In this document: positions 8,780-57,189 of the stretch, in pieces
How the letters are laid out: the number at the start of each line of letters is the position of its first letter
Numbering within the stretch: position 1 is the stretch's first letter
DNA from: Armatimonadota bacterium
GTDB taxonomy: Bacteria > Armatimonadota > HRBIN16
DNA: 64,000 nt
NCBI GenBank assembly: GCA_963677485.1
Contig: OY781964.1
Span: 2,656,001-2,720,000 of the forward strand
Direction: 5' to 3'
Made by a program: the position numbers and the translations under genes
Notes under the pieces: model-generated
What the model saw: the letters and a program-made list of their open reading frames with translations, nothing else
What the model was told of the DNA's origin: nothing
Databases searched by the model: none

Positions 8780-8866
8780 GGAGAGGTGTCCGAGCGGTTG
8801 AAGGAACCGGTCTTGAAAACCGGCAGGTGAATAGCCTCGCGGGTTCGAATCCCGCCCTCTCCGCCA
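8780..8866 (+). tRNA. tRNA-Ser(TGA)
   Basis: GGAGAGG/CCTCTCC acceptor stem, anticodon arm ccggt-ctTGAaa-accgg, long variable arm, GGTTCGAATCC, encoded CCA. Confidence 0.97.
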
Positions 8867-11144: not shown

Positions 11145-11597
11145 ATGAACTGGTATATCAAGGTGTTGAAAAAGTACGCTGACTTCAATGGCCGGGCAAG
11201 CCGTGTTGAGTTCTGGTATTTCACGCTCATCAACCTGGTGGTCTTTGCATTTAACGAAATAATTGCTCTGACCGCTGCACAGAGCTTTTTCACCTCGATT
11301 TTCAATGTGATGACGATGGAAGGTAACAAAAGCCTTGATTTCTCAGGTTTCGGTCTCGCCGTCGGAGCATTAGTGGGTCAAGCGATCTTGGGCATATACC
11401 TTCTGGCAATCCTAATTCCTTGGCTGGCTGTCACTATTCGTCGTCTTCAGGATACAGGACGTAGCGGCTTATACTGCCTGTTTCTGATGCTCCCAATTGT
11501 TGGTATTCTAGCGTTGATTGTGTTCCTTTGCGAAGACGGCCAGCCGATGGAAAACCAGTATGGCCCCAATCCGAAGGATTTGTTTGTGAGCGTGTAA
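11145..11597 (+). CDS. DUF805 family membrane protein (tandem paralog)
   Basis: MNWYIKVLKKYADFNGRASRVEFW, RRLQDTGRSG, NQYGPNP. Confidence 0.9.
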   Translation: MNWYIKVLKKYADFNGRASRVEFWYFTLINLVVFAFNEIIALTAAQSFFTSIFNVMTMEGNKSLDFSGFGLAVGALVGQAILGIYLLAILIPWLAVTIRRLQDTGRSGLYCLFLMLPIVGILALIVFLCEDGQPMENQYGPNPKDLFVSV

Positions 11598-11689
11598 GCG
11601 GGACGCTGCTAGCCGCACATAGGACAGATCGGGCCGAACCGCAGCCCAGTAGGGGCAGGCACAGGGGCCTGCCCCTTGTATGCTTATAG

Positions 11690-11891
11690 ATGGAGGTCCT
11701 CAGACCTTAACCCAAAACTTGAGGACCATCCTCACACCGGGACGCTGGGGTGAAAGAGAAGGGGTAGATGCCGTCGCGCCCCTTGTAGCTTTGACTACGC
11801 GACGTAGAATGGCACCCTTCTCTGCAATGACCTAACACGAACAGTATCATGGGCTAAAGCCCGCATTTACAAGGATGTCAAGGTTGATTGC
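11690..11891 (+). ncRNA. Predicted bridge RNA of IS110 element A (ends approximate)
   Basis: Two 5' hairpins, target-binding loop with guides cgcgcccct (11775-83) and gacgtag (11801-07), donor-binding loop with acagtatca (11841-49) and tacaag (11868-73); covaries with the element B RNA. Confidence 0.85.
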
Positions 11892-12443
11892 TTCACCTGT
11901 GTCCCTAACTAGGAGCATACCGGACTATGCAAATCAATGGCAACTCGTACAGCTACTACGCTGGGATCGACATATCTAAAGACACTTTCGACGTGTCGGT
12001 CGTTGATCAAGACGGCACCCATCTGATCCACAAGCAGTTTGTGAACAACCAGAAAGGCTTCAAAGAGCTGGTGTCACTCACCAGGAAGCAAGGCTGGATG
12101 CCTGTGTTATTCGCAATGGAAGGCACTGGCGGATGTGAGCAAAAGCTGCTTGACTACCTGTATAAGCATAAGCAGGCAGTCTCACGGCAAGAACCCTGTC
12201 GAATACACTATCATCGCCTCTCACAAGGATCTCGGCAAAAGACAGACTATGTAGACAGCCTGATCATTGCTGACTACGCACTAAAGAACCGCCTGCGGCT
12301 CTATGTCGCTAATCGGGTTACACTATACCAGCCCATTCGGCATGTGTGAGCCACCCATGTTCGGCATGACTATACCACTCTAGCCGTGTTTCGATGCCCC
12401 TGACCGCCTAAATGATAGACACAGTTTTATCAGGAGGGCATAC

Positions 12444-14003
12444 ATGGAAAGGCTAAGAATGCAGATCATAGAAGAGATCATATTCCGACTGCGGCGTGGG
12501 CAGTCCCAACGAGCGATTTCTCGTGACACGGGCTGCGCTCGTAACACCGTCAGCCAATACGCACAGTGGGCTTCTCGACTTGGATACCTGGCTCCAGATT
12601 CAGATATGCCGAGTATGGAGGCATTTCGTGACACCTTACCGCAGCGCAAACGACGCAGTAATGTGTCTAGTGCTGAACCATACCGCGAAATCATCGAGAC
12701 CTATCTCCAGACTCACATAGAGGCAGTGACCATCCACAACAACCTCAAACGACTATACGGGTTTACCGGTAGCTACTCTTCGGTTATTCGCTTCATTAAC
12801 GGACTGACCCCCAAAGAGCAGTTGGCCATTATACGTCTAGAGACAGACCCAGGAAAACAGGCCCAGGTTGACTTCGGATTTGTGGGGCAAATGAAGGACC
12901 CCGCAACAGGCAAGATGCGTTCAACGTATGCCTTCTTGATGACGCTATCACACTCTCGACATCAATATGTGGAGTTTGTATTCAATCAAAGGATACCCAC
13001 ATGGGTGAACTGCCATATCAACGCCTTTGAATTCTTCGGAGGCGTTCCAGAGGAACTTGTGATAGACAATCTAAAGTCAGCGGTTCTCAAAGCAGATATA
13101 TACGACCCTGTCATCTCGGAGCCGTATCGGCAACTGGCCTTGCACTACGACTTCCTCATTCATCCGTGTAGAGTGAGAACCCCGGAGCATAAAGGAAAAG
13201 TGGAAAACGGGGTTCATTACGTGCAGCGAAACTTCATTGCAGGCCGGGAGTTCATGGATATCGACGAAGCGAACCTGCTTGTGAAGACCTGGATCACCCA
13301 AGAGGCAGGTCTGCGTAACCATGGAACCACACATAAACAGCCATTGGCGCAGTTCAATCAGGTAGAGAAGAGCACGCTTAAGTCATTACCAGACACGGAA
13401 TTTGATCTCATTGAAGTTCGTAGTGCGAAAGTCCATCGGGACTGTCATGTTACAGTGTATGGTTCTTACTATTCCGTGCCCTACAGCTACATAGGCAGCC
13501 AAATGGACGTGCATCTGCACGAACGAGTGGTGCAGATATATGATAACGACCATAAACTAGTTGGAACACATCAAAGAGCGACACAACAAGGGCAGCGCAT
13601 TACCCGCATGACTGATTACCCAACACATAAAGTGGCCTATATGGTTCTTTCAATCGAGAATTGCCTGGAATTAGGGCATGACATCGGCCCCAGTTGTGTT
13701 ACGGTGCTTAATGCTTTGCTGGCTGACAGGCCTGTAGACCGAAGACAATCCGTGAAGAGGATCGTCCGGCTAGTTCAAACGTACAGCAGTAGTCGCCTGG
13801 AAGCGGCCTGCGCACGCTCTCTCTATTACCAAGATGGTAGTTACCAACGCATTGCTAAGATACTGAGGGCCGGTACAGATCACGAGCCAATGGGAATAAC
13901 ATCTTCTCTTCCCCCTAAAAAAGACTACCTCTTCGCTCGTAGTGCCGACGAATTCATTTTGGTCAGTAATGCTGACACCAATATGGAGGTAGAAGCGTGT
14001 TAA
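12444..14003 (+). CDS. istA: IS21 transposase
   Basis: N-terminal HTH, ETDPGKQAQVDFG, IDNLKS, KGKVEN (DDE), YSVP. Confidence 0.95.
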   Translation: MERLRMQIIEEIIFRLRRGQSQRAISRDTGCARNTVSQYAQWASRLGYLAPDSDMPSMEAFRDTLPQRKRRSNVSSAEPYREIIETYLQTHIEAVTIHNNLKRLYGFTGSYSSVIRFINGLTPKEQLAIIRLETDPGKQAQVDFGFVGQMKDPATGKMRSTYAFLMTLSHSRHQYVEFVFNQRIPTWVNCHINAFEFFGGVPEELVIDNLKSAVLKADIYDPVISEPYRQLALHYDFLIHPCRVRTPEHKGKVENGVHYVQRNFIAGREFMDIDEANLLVKTWITQEAGLRNHGTTHKQPLAQFNQVEKSTLKSLPDTEFDLIEVRSAKVHRDCHVTVYGSYYSVPYSYIGSQMDVHLHERVVQIYDNDHKLVGTHQRATQQGQRITRMTDYPTHKVAYMVLSIENCLELGHDIGPSCVTVLNALLADRPVDRRQSVKRIVRLVQTYSSSRLEAACARSLYYQDGSYQRIAKILRAGTDHEPMGITSSLPPKKDYLFARSADEFILVSNADTNMEVEAC

Positions 14004-14764
14004 CTCACACACTGCTACCCAAGCTCAGGCAACTCAGATGGTCTGGCATGGTTGATAGCCTCGAAGAGAGAGCGGAGCTAGCCCGTGAGCAAAAGCTCTC
14101 ACCAACGGAGTTCCTTGCGTTATTAGTAGATGATGAGCTTGAGCGACGCAGCCAAACTAAACAGGTAAAGATGGAGAAGGCGGCCTGTTTCGAGAACACG
14201 AAACTGCTGTCCCACTTCGACTTCAACGCTGTACCTACCCTTGATCGTTCGCTGGTAAGGGAGATGGCGACCTGCCAGTTAATCGCTCAACATGCCAACT
14301 GGCTGGTGTGTGGTCCCACTGGTGTGGGCAAGACACATCTAGCCACCGCCATAGGTTATGAGGCCATTAAGCGAAGCTACAGTGTTTATAACAGTTCTGT
14401 CCACAAGTTGCAACAGGAGATGTTTGCGGCCAGGGCAGACGATGCTTATACGCGGTTGATTAAGAAATTGGTCAACGTTGACCTCCTGATACTCGACGAC
14501 TTTGGTCTTCGCCCCATCACAATTCAGGGAGCGGAAGACCTCTACGAGATCATCCACCAGAGATACGAGAAGGGCAGTATTGTATTGACATCTAATCGGG
14601 CTCCCTCCGAATGGCCGGAGATGTTTGGCGACTCTCTTCTCGCTTCAGCTGCTATGGACAGATTGACTCACCATGCCCGGGTGACTGTTGTCACCGGTGA
14701 GAGCTATCGCCAAAGGCAGCGCAGAGGGGAGGTAAGCAAGCCGGATAATGCATCCGTAGAGTGA
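13997..14764 (+). CDS. istB: IS21 AAA+ helper ATPase
   Basis: GPTGVGKTHLA Walker A, LLILDDFG Walker B, TSN, DRLTHH; overlaps the istA stop. Confidence 0.95.
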   Translation: MLTHTLLPKLRQLRWSGMVDSLEERAELAREQKLSPTEFLALLVDDELERRSQTKQVKMEKAACFENTKLLSHFDFNAVPTLDRSLVREMATCQLIAQHANWLVCGPTGVGKTHLATAIGYEAIKRSYSVYNSSVHKLQQEMFAARADDAYTRLIKKLVNVDLLILDDFGLRPITIQGAEDLYEIIHQRYEKGSIVLTSNRAPSEWPEMFGDSLLASAAMDRLTHHARVTVVTGESYRQRQRRGEVSKPDNASVE

Positions 14765-16340
14765 GATACCGACGCATCCAACACTTACATTGGGCAATGA
14801 ACACGAACTAGTCAAGTGGTATACATATGCCGAACATGGGTGGTAGTAATAAGGTGACTATTGACAGCTCTACATTCCTAAAGGCGAAAGCTATCGGGCG
14901 CTGCAGGAGATCGGTCGCACACGGCGCATGCTGGTCAGACACCGGAACTCCCTGCAGCAGAGGCACTCTCACGCGCAGAACCTGCATGCCAAAGCGGTTC
15001 TTCAACGCAGCATAGATCACTGCACAGAGGATATCGATCTTTTGAACTCCGCGGCTGCTGAGATTATCGCCAGCAATGACAGGCTAGCGGAAGATTATCG
15101 CCTCCTGAACAGTATTCCGGGTGTAGGTGATATCACATCCAACTACTTTCTAGGGCTCATCGGTGATATATCTTGCTTTGCGACGTCTGCGAAGATAATC
15201 CGATTTGTGGGTATGAACCCATGCCCGCACCAGTCAGGAACCAGCATCGATTCCGAAAGCAGCATATCCAAAATGGGCGATCCCTACATGCGCTCCTTGT
15301 TATACACCAGTGCCATGGCTGTATTACATATGGTGGATCACAATTCGAAAGCACTCCATCCCAGCATGTATCGGTTCGTGGCCAAAATGCGGGAGAGATT
15401 CGGCCCGAGTTCTAGCAGGAAGGTCGTATGCGCGGTGATGCGCAAGCTGCTGATCTTGATGTGGGCTGTGTTGACCAGGCGTAAGGTTTACGATCCGTGC
15501 TACGGACTAGAGCCGCAGGATGCTCCGGCCAACCAGACACCGCAATCCGACGACACTGGCCTTGTCCAGTCTCGTGCCGAAGCGGCCTCAGATTTTGCCG
15601 GCGAAGGCAATGATGCTGGGCAGGACAGTGGCGTTCCAGGATTGGGATGTCTGGATGGATAGCCACCGTGTGGTTCATCCTTGGCCCCAAGTGGTTGAGC
15701 AGCATTCCAGAGCCGGCGAGTCAGCGGTAGAAAGATATGATCACCACTAGCTAGCTGCTCTTGATCTAGCCGCTAAAATTAACATCATTAGAACGTTATC
15801 TTTAAAGCCTCAAAGATGCGGGGTGGGCGTTCATCACTACGGATGACGGGCAACCCTTTGCATAACGGTGCATCTTCGCGTGGGACCGGCTTGTGCTATG
15901 AGCTTGGGTATACCTAAGGTCTATTTGCCACATTGCATAATATAAACGTTGTCCGCAGAACGTTATGGGCATAAATCTGGTATTTCGGACAAATACCAGA
16001 TTTCACCCTCGGAGGCCTTGACAAATAACACAGTATCTACGTCATGCGCCATGTCCTATCGCCCCCCCCAAATCTGCGCCATCTGCGTAATCTGTGGATT
16101 GAATCCCCCTCCAACAAGAATTGCATGGGGACCTGCCTGAGAAGCAATGGTGAAACTCCCGCCACAGAACGTAGCTCCGCTATAATAGAACTGACTAAAA
16201 GCCCAAACAAGCGCAAACAGCAAGCATAGCAACAACTTAGCCTTGAATAAGTCGCGGTGCGATGTGCCGCTGTATTATCAACTGCACCGCGACGGTAATG
16301 ACCAATGACCTTTACAGGAGCTGCGTAGCAACAGGAGATT

Positions 16341-35483: not shown

Positions 35484-35560
35484 GGGCGATTAGCTCAGCT
35501 GGTTAGAGCGCTACATTGACATTGTAGAGGTCGCTGGTTCAAGTCCAGTATTGCCCACCA
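35484..35560 (+). tRNA. tRNA-Val(GAC)
   Basis: GGGCGAT/ATTGCCC stem, ctaca-ttGACat-tgtag anticodon arm, GGTTCAAGTCC, encoded CCA. Confidence 0.97.
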
Positions 35561-55209: not shown

Positions 55210-55557
55210 TGGCCATGACCGGATCGGTGATGGCCAGCACCATCGATCCGACGGATGGGACGAATCGGACAGATGGTCTGGCGTAGATACTGTGGCTTTT
55301 GTCAAGTCCCCAGGGGCAAATCTGGGGATTTGGACCTGAATATCAGACACTGGCTCTAGACCACGTAGAATAACGTTAATGTGATGTTTGTGGCATATAG
55401 ACCAAACCTGGATCCGCGACAGAAACAGGCTCAGATGGCATCAGTTGGTCCGTAGCACCTCACATGACGCTCGGAGTCGCGAACGGACGTGCGACATCTT
55501 CGTGGCTTCGAAAGATATCGTTATGCTTCGATGCGTGCTATCGGCAGACTGCCGCAG

Positions 55558-56850
55558 CTAGGATACTGGTGTCAGAACCCTCGGTTTGTTGCCCACCCGA
55601 CTGCGCGATGGCCGGTTTCGGGATGCGGGCCGACCACCGCCGGCAGGAGTGGGCTCATTGGTGGGATTTCCATCCACGCATCCCCGTCTTGGAACGCTCA
55701 CGTCCAGCCCAGGATCATTGCCTACACCGGCTATATCATGGGCCGCTCCGGCACGATCCTGGACATGTCCGTTCGCGTCGGTCAGCGGTTGCTGGTTGGC
55801 CGCATTTGAAGCTTGTTCGATGCCGAAGTTTGGATCATATGGCTGACGGCTGATTAATACCGACCACATGAGCACCAGCTGCTTGCGCATGATTGCGCAC
55901 CGGACAACTCGCTTGGACTTCGGTTTCTTATTGGGATTCTTTACCAAATTCGGATGCTGCAGTTCCTTCACGAAGTCGTGCATGCTCTGGCCAAGCTTTT
56001 TCGACTTACCGTTGACCATCTTCACCACAGTGCTCGATCCACAGTAGAGTAATGTCCGCATATATCGGTCACCCATCTTGGATATGGAGCCGTCGTATGT
56101 CTTGCAGCTTCCTGACCGTTGCGGGCAGGGGTTCATTCCGAAATAGCGCGCGACCGCTTTCGATGTTTCAAATCGTTTAGCATCACCGATTTTCGCAAGG
56201 AAATAGCTTGCTGTGACGTCGCCGATACCCGGAATGCTCTTCAGCAGAGCCATATCTTCGGTCATCTGCGGTGAACTCATCACAAGCTCTTTGATCTGAA
56301 CATCAAGCTTTTTGATGCCCATGTCATGAAAAGCGATCATCTCGTCCAGCACTGTGCTCCGCGTAAGCCGACAGCTTTGGCGCTGGGCGATCGCCTGTCT
56401 GTGTTGCACCAGCATACGGCGGTCATTGGTGTAACCAATAAGCGCATCATAGCATGCTAGACGAGGGACATAGAGTGAGACATTGTGACTTTTCACATAG
56501 TCAGCGATTAGCACGCTGTCAGAGCAGTCCGTCTTTTGTTCCCAGCCTTTGGCTTTGCGGTGATAGAGAACCCGTTTTGGCTCCAGTTGGACAGCATCGT
56601 GCTGGTGCTCGTAGAGGTAATCAAGCAGCGGTCGGCTGTAAGGCCCGGTGGCTTCAGCCGCATACAAGGCGGGAGTTCGGGTAAGCTTCTTCACCCATGA
56701 CAACAACTCCTTGTATCCGGCCTTGTTGTTCTTGAACTCCTTATGGTCTATCGGCTTGTGCGATGAACCTAATACAGACGCGTCAAACGTCAATTTCGAG
56801 ATGTCGATCCCGACATAATGGATGTAGATTTTGTCTTCAACTTCGTGCAT
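55558..56850 (-). CDS. IS110 DEDD bridge recombinase
   Basis: GIDISK, AEATG, KTDCSD, SIPGIG, PQRSGS (catalytic Ser); start MHEVED after RBS ggag. Confidence 0.93.
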   Translation of the reverse strand: MHEVEDKIYIHYVGIDISKLTFDASVLGSSHKPIDHKEFKNNKAGYKELLSWVKKLTRTPALYAAEATGPYSRPLLDYLYEHQHDAVQLEPKRVLYHRKAKGWEQKTDCSDSVLIADYVKSHNVSLYVPRLACYDALIGYTNDRRMLVQHRQAIAQRQSCRLTRSTVLDEMIAFHDMGIKKLDVQIKELVMSSPQMTEDMALLKSIPGIGDVTASYFLAKIGDAKRFETSKAVARYFGMNPCPQRSGSCKTYDGSISKMGDRYMRTLLYCGSSTVVKMVNGKSKKLGQSMHDFVKELQHPNLVKNPNKKPKSKRVVRCAIMRKQLVLMWSVLISRQPYDPNFGIEQASNAANQQPLTDANGHVQDRAGAAHDIAGVGNDPGLDVSVPRRGCVDGNPTNEPTPAGGGRPASRNRPSRSRVGNKPRVLTPVS

Positions 56851-56882
56851 GTGGTAATCTCCAGTTGGTAGTGATTGATGGT

Positions 56883-57082
56883 GCAATCAACCAAATCAGC
56901 CTAGCGAACACGGGGTTTTCTCCCAAGATACTGTTCGATATGGGTTGATTGGGAGAAGGATGCCTATCTACGTCACGGTGTTTTCCACCAGGGGCGGTTC
57001 CGGCATCCAATCCTTCTCCTTCACCCCCAGCTAAGGGGTGAGATTAGCTCCCCGACTGCTTTTGGTGTCCGGGGAGCTCACC
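56883..57082 (-). ncRNA. Predicted bridge RNA of IS110 element B (ends approximate)
   Basis: Target guides accgcccct (56998-90) and gacgtag (56974-68); donor guides acagtatct (56934-26) and cgctag (56906-01); same fold as the element A RNA. Confidence 0.87.
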
Positions 57083-57189
57083 ATATATAGCGTACTAGGG
57101 GCGGGGTCACCCCGAATCAGGGCGCGGAGACCGCGCCCCACACATCGTCCTGCGGGGCGCGGTCTCCGCGCCCTGGGTGATGAAGCCCT

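What the first reader, a model, noticed from the sequence alone, without database searches (positions are those of the whole stretch)
11675..16038. Second, diverged bridge-RNA IS110 element inserted at the CT of a REP
Seen: removing 11677-16038 restores the REP gtaggggcaggcacaggggcctgccc-CT-acgtc. The right target guide gacgtag is the exact reverse complement of CTacgtc; the left guide cgcgcccct matches 7/9 of cctgcccCT; donor guides acagtatca and tacaag match acagtat-CT-tgta. This is an independent instance of guide-flank matching.
Basis: partly seen in the sequence, partly recalled or inferred. Interest (0 to 1): 0.8.

Follow-up and report, generated by a model that had tools for sequence, protein, structure and literature searches.

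The report
Bridge-RNA IS110 element split by IS21
This is an ordinary though well-preserved RNA-guided jumping gene of the IS110/IS621 kind, sitting in a short palindromic repeat that its own guide RNA matches, and later broken by a second, unrelated jumping gene.

Summary
Window 11677-16038 (+) is an IS110-family, IS621-like element flanked on both sides by the core CT. Removing it restores a perfect 12-bp-stem REP hairpin.

Its 5' non-coding end holds a two-loop bridge RNA. The guides match the target flanks and the element's own ends in the strand sense described for IS621.

- A 2563-bp IS21-family element (12304-14866, 6-bp duplication) splits the recombinase gene in this copy.
- An intact 1790-bp twin lies elsewhere in the genome, in another REP whose left flank matches the left target guide 9/9.

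Three further variants have different left guides, each matching its own hairpin target: nine copies in a sister-species genome and two metagenome contigs. So does the 12-copy second family in this genome.

A covariance model of the RNA finds the same fold just upstream of 33 of 77 distant IS110 genes, with 29 of 31 pairs covarying.

Verdict: a new member of a known kind. Activity, transcription and the empty site were not shown.

The parts
11649..11676 (.). Left part of the target REP hairpin (GTAGGGGCAGGC-ACAGGG-GCCTGCCC) plus core CT at 11675-11676. The left target (LT) is the 3' arm of the hairpin.
   Evidence: DNA fold of the restored site -15.4 kcal/mol.
11677..16038 (+). IS110-family (IS621-like) element, copy A, 4362 bp including the nested IS21. 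Without the IS21 and one duplication copy it is 1793 bp.
   Evidence: It differs from the intact 1790-bp twin (genome 1296596-1298385) by 4 substitutions and one 3-nt in-frame indel.
11679..11684 (+). -10-like hexamer TATGCT. [quoted passage not shown]
   Evidence: Read. The arrangement in IS621 is described. Not shown to be active.
11692..11731 (+). 5' stem-loop of the predicted bridge RNA.
11755..11823 (+). Target-binding stem-loop: outer stems, internal loop with the guides, inner hairpin.
   Evidence: (helices 1-3, 100% of cells paired, 4 pairs with compensatory change).
11775..11783 (+). Left target guide cgcgccc plus core-binding ct, same sense as the top strand of the left target.
   Evidence: 9/9 to the flank of copy B and 7/9 to the flank of copy A.
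11801..11807 (+). Right target guide gacgtag, reverse complement of CT-ACGTC. The following aa (11808-11809) sits where IS621 has its handshake guide.
   Evidence: 7/7 to copy A and 5/7 to copy B. Handshake position taken.
11829..11885 (+). Donor-binding stem-loop.
   Evidence: (helices 4-5).
11841..11849 (+). Left donor guide acagtatc(a), same sense as the right end ACAGTAT-C(T).
   Evidence: IS621's left donor guide also pairs through the first core base only.
11863..11873 (+). Right donor guide gcat-tt-acaag. It pairs with CT-TGT and ATGC of the left end, with a 2-nt bulge (tt).
   Evidence: columns 1-7 pair with 189-197, two compensatory changes in the 12-copy family. IS621 flips out U159 and U160 at the same place.
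11927..12303 (+). 5' part of the recombinase gene (codons 1-125 plus 2 nt): RuvC-like DEDD domain with D15, E65, D107, D110.
   Evidence: PF01548 E 1.8e-21.
12298..12303 (.). Target-site duplication GCTCTA of the IS21 insertion, left copy. The right copy is at 14867-14872.
   Evidence: (comparison with the uninterrupted twin).
12304..14866 (+). Nested IS21-family element, 2563 bp, ends TGTC...GACA, with istA at 12444-14003 and istB at 13997-14764. It is one of 9 full copies in the genome.
   Evidence: (NF033546 269.6 bits, NF038214 251.2 bits).
14873..15662 (+). 3' part of the recombinase gene: Tnp domain with the serine equivalent to IS621 S241 (S247), and a 58-residue C-terminal tail shared with the 12-copy family.
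   Evidence: PF02371 E 2.4e-21.
15663..16038 (+). 376-nt non-coding right end. It holds a perfect 13-bp hairpin at 15973-16003, the -35 TTGACA at 16018-16023, the left donor ACAGTAT at 16030-16036 and core CT at 16037-16038.
   Evidence: (I5).
16039..16043 (.). Right target ACGTC. Its AC completes the REP stem.

Best explanation
Window 11677-16038 is a copy of an IS110-family insertion sequence of the IS621 type. Such elements move through a circular intermediate and are inserted by a DEDD/serine recombinase directed by a bridge RNA encoded in the element's 5' end.

Shown here: the bridge RNA has two internal loops. One carries guides that match the insertion site: the 3' arm of a REP hairpin, then CT, then ACG. 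The other carries guides that match the element's joined ends, ACAGTAT-CT-TGTATGC.

Inferred: recombination at the CT core put the element into the REP without any duplication beyond CT.

Shown here: a 2563-bp IS21-family element later inserted into codon 126 of the recombinase gene and made a 6-bp duplication. This separates the RuvC-like domain from the serine-bearing Tnp domain. Copy A therefore keeps intact ends and an intact bridge-RNA gene but cannot make its own enzyme.

Inferred: copy A could move only with recombinase from the intact, nearly identical twin at genome 1296596-1298385.

Inferred by homology with IS621: transcription of the RNA from a junction promoter, the circular form, and activity today.
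For: Protein:
- PF01548 and PF02371 lie on the two gene halves.
- The intact twin scores 189.6 bits against NF033542, 'IS110 family RNA-guided transposase' (cutoff 140).
- The best solved relative is IS621 transposase, E 1.1e-24. All five catalytic residues align: D15, E65, D107, D110, S247.

Ends:
- CT flanks both sides and there are no terminal inverted repeats.
- The restored site is a perfect REP hairpin.

Guides:
- Copy A matches LTG 7/9 and RTG 7/7. Copy B matches LTG 9/9 and RTG 5/7.
- The strand sense is as defined for IS621.
- The right donor guide has a 2-nt bulge like IS621 U159/U160.

Covariation of left guide and target over 7 non-core positions:
- Sister-species variant, guide GTCATCC: 6 of 9 sites match 7/7 and 3 of 9 match 6/7.
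- Metagenome variants: CGTGCCC against CATGCCC, and GTGGCCC against GTTGCCC, 6/7 each.
- 12-copy family, guide ACCGCCC: 6 sites at 7/7, 5 at 6/7, 1 at 4/7.
- Mean match of the sister-species sites is 6.67 to their own guide, against 3.22 and 3.33 to the other two guides.

RNA fold:
- 97.4% of cells pair and 7 pairs show compensatory change in 5 sequences.
- Model R1 hits 33 of 77 distant IS110 loci. All hits are on the gene strand and end 0-131 nt upstream of the protein match.
- In those hits 91.4% of cells pair and 29 of 31 pairs covary. Slid controls give 34-49%.
- R1 finds only the two IS110 elements in the 64-kb window.

IS21 nest.

Depth in contigs runs about 9: 20: 86 for flank, IS110 and IS21, which fits 1, 2 and 9 copies.
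Against: - No empty site was found. The sister genome is not syntenic here. The laid contigs show no joint that skips 11677-16038 and no circle junction. Contigs cannot show rare forms.
- No RNA data were examined, so transcription of the bridge RNA is unproven.
- The junction promoter was read by eye. Its -10 matches only 4 of 6 positions.
- Copy A's left target matches its own guide at only 5 of 7 non-core positions, the same as its match to the other family's guide. Its right flank fits that family's extended RTG one base further, 6 against 5 consecutive.
- There are only two copies in this genome, so a within-genome target logo is not possible.
- Rfam has no matching family and no E. coli DNA match was found. 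The RNA was therefore never aligned directly with the IS621 bridge RNA.
- Alignment A4 was fitted to the model, which inflates pairing counts. The structure tested on A3 was derived from those same sequences.
Confidence: 0.93

Rival explanations
1. The element targets REPs through protein recognition of the hairpin alone, which was the older view of REP-specific IS110 elements. The guide-flank complementarity would then be incidental, for instance REP-like sequence captured in the left end.
For: All targets are hairpins. 21 of 25 restored sites fold at or below the 5th percentile of random CT-centred 42-mers. GCCC-CT-AC is common to many REPs of this genome (GCCCCTACG occurs 232 times). So part of the match is shared by every REP. 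A preprint on ISPpu10 reports, in its abstract, that a target stem-loop adds specificity.
Against: The variable positions of the left guide change with the target in five lineages whose scaffold is otherwise 84-100% conserved. The guides lie in the internal loops of a fold conserved across distant IS110 elements. The hairpin may add to RNA guidance, but it cannot explain the covariation.
Confidence: 0.03
2. Copy A is an inert fossil. With the recombinase gene split it can no longer move, and it is kept only as a passive remnant.
For: The IS21 element separates the DEDD domain from the serine domain. No circle junction or empty site appears in the contigs. Copy A has accumulated 4 substitutions and a 3-nt indel relative to the twin.
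Against: Both ends, all four guides and the -35/-10 halves are intact, and none of the differences falls in a guide. An intact twin encodes the enzyme. Bridge RNA supplied in trans works for IS621. A section heading of the ISPpu10 preprint calls that enzyme trans-acting; I saw only the outline. A preprint abstract reports natural IS110 elements that carry cargo.
Confidence: 0.45
3. The matches and the restored palindrome arise by chance, or the junctions are assembly artefacts at repeats.
For: Short GC-rich motifs are frequent in a 54% GC genome rich in REPs.
Against: The 9-mer and 7-mer guides are expected 0.75 and 4.25 times per 128 kb. The twin copy and 12 related insertions show the same ends. 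All junctions are carried by contigs of runs from two studies.
Confidence: 0.01

Closest known systems
IS621 of Escherichia coli (IS110 group; bridge recombinase; PDB 8wt6)
   Same: - Two-domain DEDD plus serine recombinase with all five catalytic residues.
- A 5' bridge RNA with a 5' stem-loop, a target-binding loop and a donor-binding loop.
- The same strand logic of the four guides, the same CT core, and a REP target ending ...C-CT-AC (IS621 wild-type target ATCAGGC-CT-AC).
- Donor positions 6-14 (AT-CT-TGTAT) are the same as given in the text of the structure paper.
- The right donor guide has a 2-nt bulge.
- A and G sit at the two first handshake positions.
- The -35 lies in the right end and the -10 in the left end.
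   Different: - The protein is only distantly related (90.7 bits over residues 10-325).
- There is no DNA-level match to any E. coli genome searched.
- The protein is 387 aa against a 328-residue solved chain, with a 58-residue C-terminal tail conserved in both families of this genome.
- The right end is 376 nt.
- The right target guide can pair over 7 bases at copy A, whereas wild-type IS621 pairs over 4.
- The target REP family differs.
ISPpu10 / ISPpu9 of Pseudomonas putida (IS110 family, REP-targeting)
   Same: Insertions go into one conserved intergenic palindrome, with the target lying next to or within a GC-rich stem-loop (abstracts). Here the left target is the 3' arm of a hairpin in 21 of 25 sites.
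   Different: No sequence comparison was made. The functional role of the hairpin is untested here. No sRNA like Ssr9 was identified in the right end (one search gave only weak consensus structure).
Expanded, cargo-carrying IS110 elements (preprint 10.64898/2026.08.14.744561; abstract only)
   Same: An IS110 element whose boundaries enclose extra DNA.
   Different: Here the extra DNA is another insertion sequence that landed inside the recombinase gene and inactivated it. It is not cargo added beside an intact gene. Mobility of the composite is not shown.
IS21 family (IstA/IstB)
   Same: The nested element has IstA (rve and Mu-transposase C-terminal domains) and the IstB ATPase in overlapping genes, TG...CA ends, and 5-8 bp duplications in 7 of 9 copies.
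   Different: Nothing unusual was noted.

Membership tests
IS110 family, IS110 group (IS621-like bridge recombinase element) | Recombinase with an N-terminal RuvC-like DEDD domain and a C-terminal Tnp domain carrying the catalytic serine | tested here: met
   PF01548 and PF02371. NF033542 scores 189.6 bits against a cutoff of 140. D15, E65, D107, D110 and S247 align with IS621 D11, E60, D102, D105 and S241. In copy A the gene is split by IS21. In the twin it is intact at 387 aa.
IS110 family, IS110 group (IS621-like bridge recombinase element) | No terminal inverted repeats; the same core dinucleotide (CT) at both junctions and no longer duplication | tested here: met
   The same ends and CT occur in the twin, in 9 sister-species copies and in 2 metagenome copies.
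IS110 family, IS110 group (IS621-like bridge recombinase element) | Structured non-coding RNA in the left end with two internal-loop stem-loops | tested here: met
   (97.4% of cells paired, 7 compensatory pairs). Model R1 hits 33 of 77 distant IS110 loci upstream of the gene. 29 of 31 pairs covary.
IS110 family, IS110 group (IS621-like bridge recombinase element) | Left and right target guides match the target; left and right donor guides match the joined ends; left guides have top-strand sense and right guides are reverse complements, each including the core | tested here: met
.
IS110 family, IS110 group (IS621-like bridge recombinase element) | [quoted passage not shown] | tested here: inconclusive
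   TTGACA (16018-16023), 17 nt, TATGCT (11679-11684), read. The -35 and the spacing are conserved in all lineages. There is no transcript evidence.
IS110 family, IS110 group (IS621-like bridge recombinase element) | Circular intermediate and precise excision | tested here: inconclusive
   No circle junction or empty site appears in contigs of 4 runs. Contigs drop rare forms.
IS110 family, IS110 group (IS621-like bridge recombinase element) | RNA matches a curated bridge-RNA family | not testable with these tools
   Rfam 15 gave no relevant hit at the gathering threshold or at E up to 5.
IS21 family (nested element 12304-14866) | IstA DDE transposase plus IstB AAA+ helper, TG...CA ends, short target duplication, several copies | tested here: met
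   NF033546 scores 269.6 bits (cutoff 160) and NF038214 scores 251.2 bits (cutoff 200). PF01695 has E 7e-67. There are 9 copies at 99.4-100% identity, and 7 of 9 have 5-8 bp duplications.

The most novel reading that the evidence does not exclude
The IS21-interrupted copy may still be a working donor. With intact ends, guides and promoter halves, and an intact twin supplying enzyme, it could move as a 4.36-kb bridge-RNA element that carries an IS21 as a passenger.

This clade may also form a distinct IS110 subgroup that reads a DNA hairpin as well as the sequence. Its marks are a conserved 58-residue C-terminal tail, a 376-nt right end, and a target that is always the 3' arm of a hairpin.

A REP at genome 3495654 is followed by 7 nt of the element's left end. 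It could be a scar of imperfect or half-matched excision.
Probability: 0.2. Interest if true: 0.45.

Novelty: new member of a known kind. Interest (0 to 1): 0.3.

Why it matters
For annotation:
- It resolves a 4.4-kb stretch into two nested insertion sequences.
- It fixes their exact ends.
- It shows the order of events: IS110 first, IS21 later.

For the bridge-recombinase field it adds a small natural series. Four left target guides sit on a scaffold that is 84-100% conserved, and each is matched to a different hairpin repeat. A fifth occurs in a 46%-identical family in the same genome. These are natural examples of retargeting by a few guide substitutions, and possible new orthologues with a long right target guide.

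None of this changes the known mechanism.

Tried and rejected
- Rfam at the gathering threshold on the window and at E up to 5 on the intact copy gave no bridge-RNA family. The only hit was a spurious lncRNA match at E 3.4.
- blastn of the intact element against all complete E. coli genomes found no match. A direct alignment with IS621 DNA or RNA was therefore not possible.
- The search for an empty site failed. The left and right flanks map to different places in the sister genome G001, and only weakly in G002.
- Laid contigs of runs X1, X2, X4 and X5 show no joint across 11677-16038 and no circle junction. This says nothing about rare forms. The joint 12297 to 14867 is simply the twin copy.
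- In 61 relatives by DNA and 301 genomes of the phylum by protein at E <= 1e-40, the element was found only in G000 and G001. It was not found in the other genomes searched.
- The genome-contig scan returned only G001.
- The right end was folded on an alignment of three lineages, on both strands. The consensus energies were equal and weak (-30.3 and -30.2), so I claim no second RNA.
- The promoter and terminator scan of the integrated copy found 3 promoter-like sites where 4.8 were expected, and none is relevant.
- I considered reading copy A's site as a target of the other family's guide. Its match is equal or slightly better, but the donor ends are those of this family.
Supplementary files of the papers were not opened. 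Supplementary tables of the two 2024 Nature papers may list this or closely related orthologues.
- I did not run the search for homologous proteins, the search of protein representatives, the protein-atlas search, structure prediction or complex prediction.

Full report
**What is at the coordinates**

The window is genome G000, positions 2656001-2720000. CT lies at 11675-11676 and again at 16037-16038. Between them the sequence starts TGTATGC and ends ACAGTAT-CT. Joining 11676 to 16039 gives GTAGGGGCAGGC-ACAGGG-GCCTGCCCCTAC, a hairpin with a perfect 12-bp stem. As DNA it folds at -15.4 kcal/mol, below the 1st percentile (-9.8) of 2000 random CT-centred 42-mers of the same genome. The guides are LTG 11775-11783, RTG 11801-11807, LDG 11841-11849 and the right donor guide ending at 11873.

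**The span is a nest of two elements**

ORFs and domain searches show the following:
- a DEDD_Tnp_IS110 fragment at 11927-12349;
- an IS21 transposase IstA at 12444-14003;
- the IstB helper at 13997-14764;
- a Transposase_20 fragment at 14928-15662.

A second copy of the IS110 element lies at genome 1296596-1298385. It is 1790 bp and uninterrupted, with an intact 387-aa gene. Comparing the two copies fixes the intruder at 12304-14866. It is 2563 bp, has ends TGTC...GACA, and made a 6-bp duplication GCTCTA.

This IS21-family element has 9 full copies in the genome at 99.4-100% identity, and 7 of the 9 have 5-8 bp duplications. It entered codon 126 of the recombinase gene. That places D15, E65, D107 and D110 on one side and S247 on the other.

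Apart from the nest, copy A differs from the twin by 4 substitutions and one in-frame 3-nt indel. None of these lies in a guide.

Contigs of four public runs from two studies carry both outer junctions and the IS21 junctions. Depths in X1 are about 9 for the flank, 20 for the IS110 and 86 for the IS21, as expected for 1, 2 and 9 copies. These runs may include the source sample, so they confirm the assembly but are not independent biology.

**Family of the outer element**

The intact protein passes the NCBIfam model 'IS110 family RNA-guided transposase' at 189.6 bits, above the cutoff of 140. Its best solved relative is the IS621 transposase (E 1.1e-24), followed by ISCro4. All five catalytic residues named in the IS621 structure paper are conserved. 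The element has no terminal inverted repeats and only the CT core is repeated at the junctions.

**The RNA**

The 250-nt left end folds into four parts:
- a 5' stem-loop;
- a small hairpin;
- a stem-loop whose internal loop holds cgcgcccct on the 5' side and gacgtag on the 3' side;
- a stem-loop whose internal loop holds acagtatca and gcatttacaag.

This is the architecture described for the IS621 bridge RNA: a 5' stem-loop, a target-binding loop and a donor-binding loop. Left guides have the sense of the top strand. Right guides are complementary to it. Each includes the core (passages read).

Finer details also agree:
- The left donor guide pairs through the first core base only and is followed by A.
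- The right donor guide pairs with CT-TGT and then ATGC, with two unpaired U between. IS621 flips out U159 and U160 at this point. RNAalifold found this pairing unprompted, with two compensatory changes in the other family.
- The bases just 3' of the two right guides are A and G. They are complementary to donor position 7 (T) and target position 7 (C), as for the IS621 handshake guides.
- The donor sequence at positions 6-14 (AT-CT-TGTAT) is the same as in the text of the structure paper.

Across a circular junction the right end would supply TTGACA (16018-16023). After 17 nt, the left end would supply TATGCT (11679-11684). I read this from the sequence only.

**Is the fold real?**

I aligned five distinct sequences: this element, the sister-species variant, two metagenome variants and the 12-copy family. 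On this alignment 97.4% of cells pair and 7 of 31 pairs carry compensatory changes. Slid controls give 35-49%. The structure was derived from these same sequences, which is a caveat.

A covariance model built from the alignment was run on 77 metagenome loci. These encode IS110 proteins only 24-34% identical to this one.
- It matched 33 of the 77 at E <= 1, and 25 at E < 0.01.
- Every match was on the gene strand and ended 0-131 nt upstream of the protein match.
- In those matches 91.4% of cells pair and 29 of 31 pairs show compensatory change. Slid controls give 34-49%. This alignment is fitted to the model, so the counts lean toward the structure.
- Some of the 44 loci without a match have too little upstream sequence.
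- In the 64-kb window the model hits only the two IS110 elements.

**Do guides and targets go together?**

| Lineage | Left guide (7 non-core) | Left targets | Right flank |
|---|---|---|---|
| This element, 2 copies in the genome | CGCGCCC | twin CGCGCCC (7/7; 9/9 with core); copy A CCTGCCC (5/7) | twin ACGGTCA; copy A ACGTC |
| Sister species G001, 9 copies of an 85%-identical element | GTCATCC | 6 of 9 sites 7/7, 3 of 9 sites 6/7 | ACG in 8 of 9 |
| Metagenome locus L095 | CGTGCCC | CATGCCC (6/7) | ACG |
| Metagenome locus L096 | GTGGCCC | GTTGCCC (6/7) | ACG |
| Metagenome locus L097 | as G001 | as G001 | contig ends before the right end |
| 12-copy family of this genome (46% protein identity) | ACCGCCC | 6 sites 7/7, 5 sites 6/7, 1 site 4/7 | AC in 11 of 12 |

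- The G001 copies have the same ends as this element, and all lie after a different hairpin, GGATGACC-ACAAG-GGTCATCC-CT.
- Mean match of G001 sites is 6.67 to their own guide, against 3.22 and 3.33 to the other two guides.
- The first base after the core in the left end differs between the two families of this genome (T against A). The right donor guide differs to match.
- After the core, AC follows in 23 of 25 sites and ACG in 16 of 25.
- The predicted logo GCCC-CT-ACG holds for this genome and the two metagenome variants. In the sister species it is ATCC-CT-ACG, with the guide changed accordingly.

**Results against my reading**

- Copy A taken alone is weak on the left. Its 5/7 match equals its match to the other family's guide. 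Its right flank fits that family's longer right guide one base further. What identifies the element is its donor ends, the twin and the relatives.
- GCCC-CT-AC is common to many REPs of this genome (GCCCCTACG occurs 232 times). Part of every match is therefore shared REP consensus. The informative positions are the four furthest from the core.
- No empty site was found. The sister genome is not syntenic here, and contigs show neither an empty site nor a circle.
- No transcript data were examined.
- The element was never aligned with the IS621 RNA itself. Rfam has no such family, and E. coli genomes gave no DNA match.

**Target structure**

In 21 of 25 restored sites the DNA folds into a hairpin at or below the 5th percentile of random controls. 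The left target forms the 3' arm, and the core follows the stem directly or lies within it. The abstract of a 2026 preprint on ISPpu10 reports that such a target stem-loop adds specificity beyond base pairing. That may apply here but was not tested.

**Mechanism proposed**

Shown:
- the anatomy of the element;
- the guide-target and guide-donor complementarity;
- covariation of guide and target between lineages;
- the conserved fold;
- the conserved catalytic residues;
- the nested IS21 with its duplication.

Inferred from IS621:
- excision to a circle;
- a junction promoter driving the bridge RNA and the recombinase;
- synapsis of donor and target on one RNA;
- strand exchange at CT.

Also inferred: copy A inserted first, IS21 then broke its gene, and copy A can now move only with enzyme from the twin. 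Support for trans action comes from other systems. The IS621 bridge RNA works in trans. A section heading of the ISPpu10 preprint calls its enzyme trans-acting (outline only). A preprint abstract reports natural IS110 elements with cargo.

**Comparison and novelty**

The element meets every defining feature of the IS110 group of bridge-recombinase elements that could be tested by sequence.

It differs from IS621 in four ways:
- distant protein similarity;
- a 58-residue C-terminal tail shared by both families of this genome;
- a long right end of 376 nt;
- a right target guide able to pair over 7 bases.

Close relatives were found only in this genus among 301 genomes of the phylum searched, and in three metagenome contigs. 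This is a new member of a known kind. The nested IS21 and the natural series of retargeted guides are useful detail, not new biology.

**Papers**

- PMC11208160 and PMC11208158: passages returned by 'find'.
- 10.64898/2026.03.19.712850 and 10.64898/2026.08.14.744561: abstract and outline only.
- PMC12288879 and the other titles: search listing only.
- No supplements were seen.

Noticed in passing
window 55285-57096 (-): A full 1812-bp copy of the other IS110 family, one of 12 copies in the genome. Its protein is 46% identical to this element's. It lies after the hairpin-derived flank ...GACCCCGCCC-CT, and its own bridge RNA is at 56886-57024. Of the 12 copies, 10 have an intact 430-aa gene. 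The other 2 (near genome 1369265 and 1872741) carry a 16-bp deletion that shifts the frame.
   Followed up: partly
genome G000 3495654-3495674 (outside the window): A REP ending CCGCGCCC-CT, a perfect left-guide match, is followed by TGTATGC, the first 7 nt of this element, and then by unrelated sequence. With 14 such REP ends in the genome, a 7-nt match is expected about 0.001 times. It may be a remnant or excision scar. I spotted it post hoc.
   Followed up: partly
genome G000 5197367-5199929 and 5206290-5208852 (outside the window): These two IS21 copies are the only 2 of the 9 without a target duplication. They are inverted relative to each other and about 6 kb apart. This suggests an inversion between them or a composite arrangement.
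   Followed up: no
window 16071-16100: A roughly 30-nt interspersed repeat (AAATCTGCGCCATCTGCGTAATCTGTGGAT) lies just beside the insertion. It gives 57 short-blast hits in the genome and about 25 in the sister genome. Several hits lie near other IS110 insertions.
   Followed up: partly
window 15486-15659 and 15663-16038: A 58-residue C-terminal tail of the recombinase (YDPCYG...GCLDG) is conserved between the two IS110 families but lies outside the Pfam and NCBIfam models. The 376-nt right end has conserved small hairpins (ATCTTT...AAAGAT, and 15973-16003 just upstream of the -35). Their function is unknown.
   Followed up: partly
window 11775-11787: The left target guide is followed in the RNA by TGTA, the start of the inner stem. 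This equals the first 4 nt of the element. RNA nt 99-111 is therefore identical to the left junction of the twin copy over 13 nt. The same holds in the sister-species and metagenome variants. In the other family only 2 of 4 bases match. It may be coincidence or a product-stabilising extension.
   Followed up: no
window 8780-8863 and 35484-35557: Two tRNA genes. These are the only Rfam matches in the window at the gathering threshold.
   Followed up: no
window 11145-11597 (+): The gene upstream of the insertion encodes a DUF805 membrane protein. The REP and the element lie in its 3' intergenic region.
   Followed up: no
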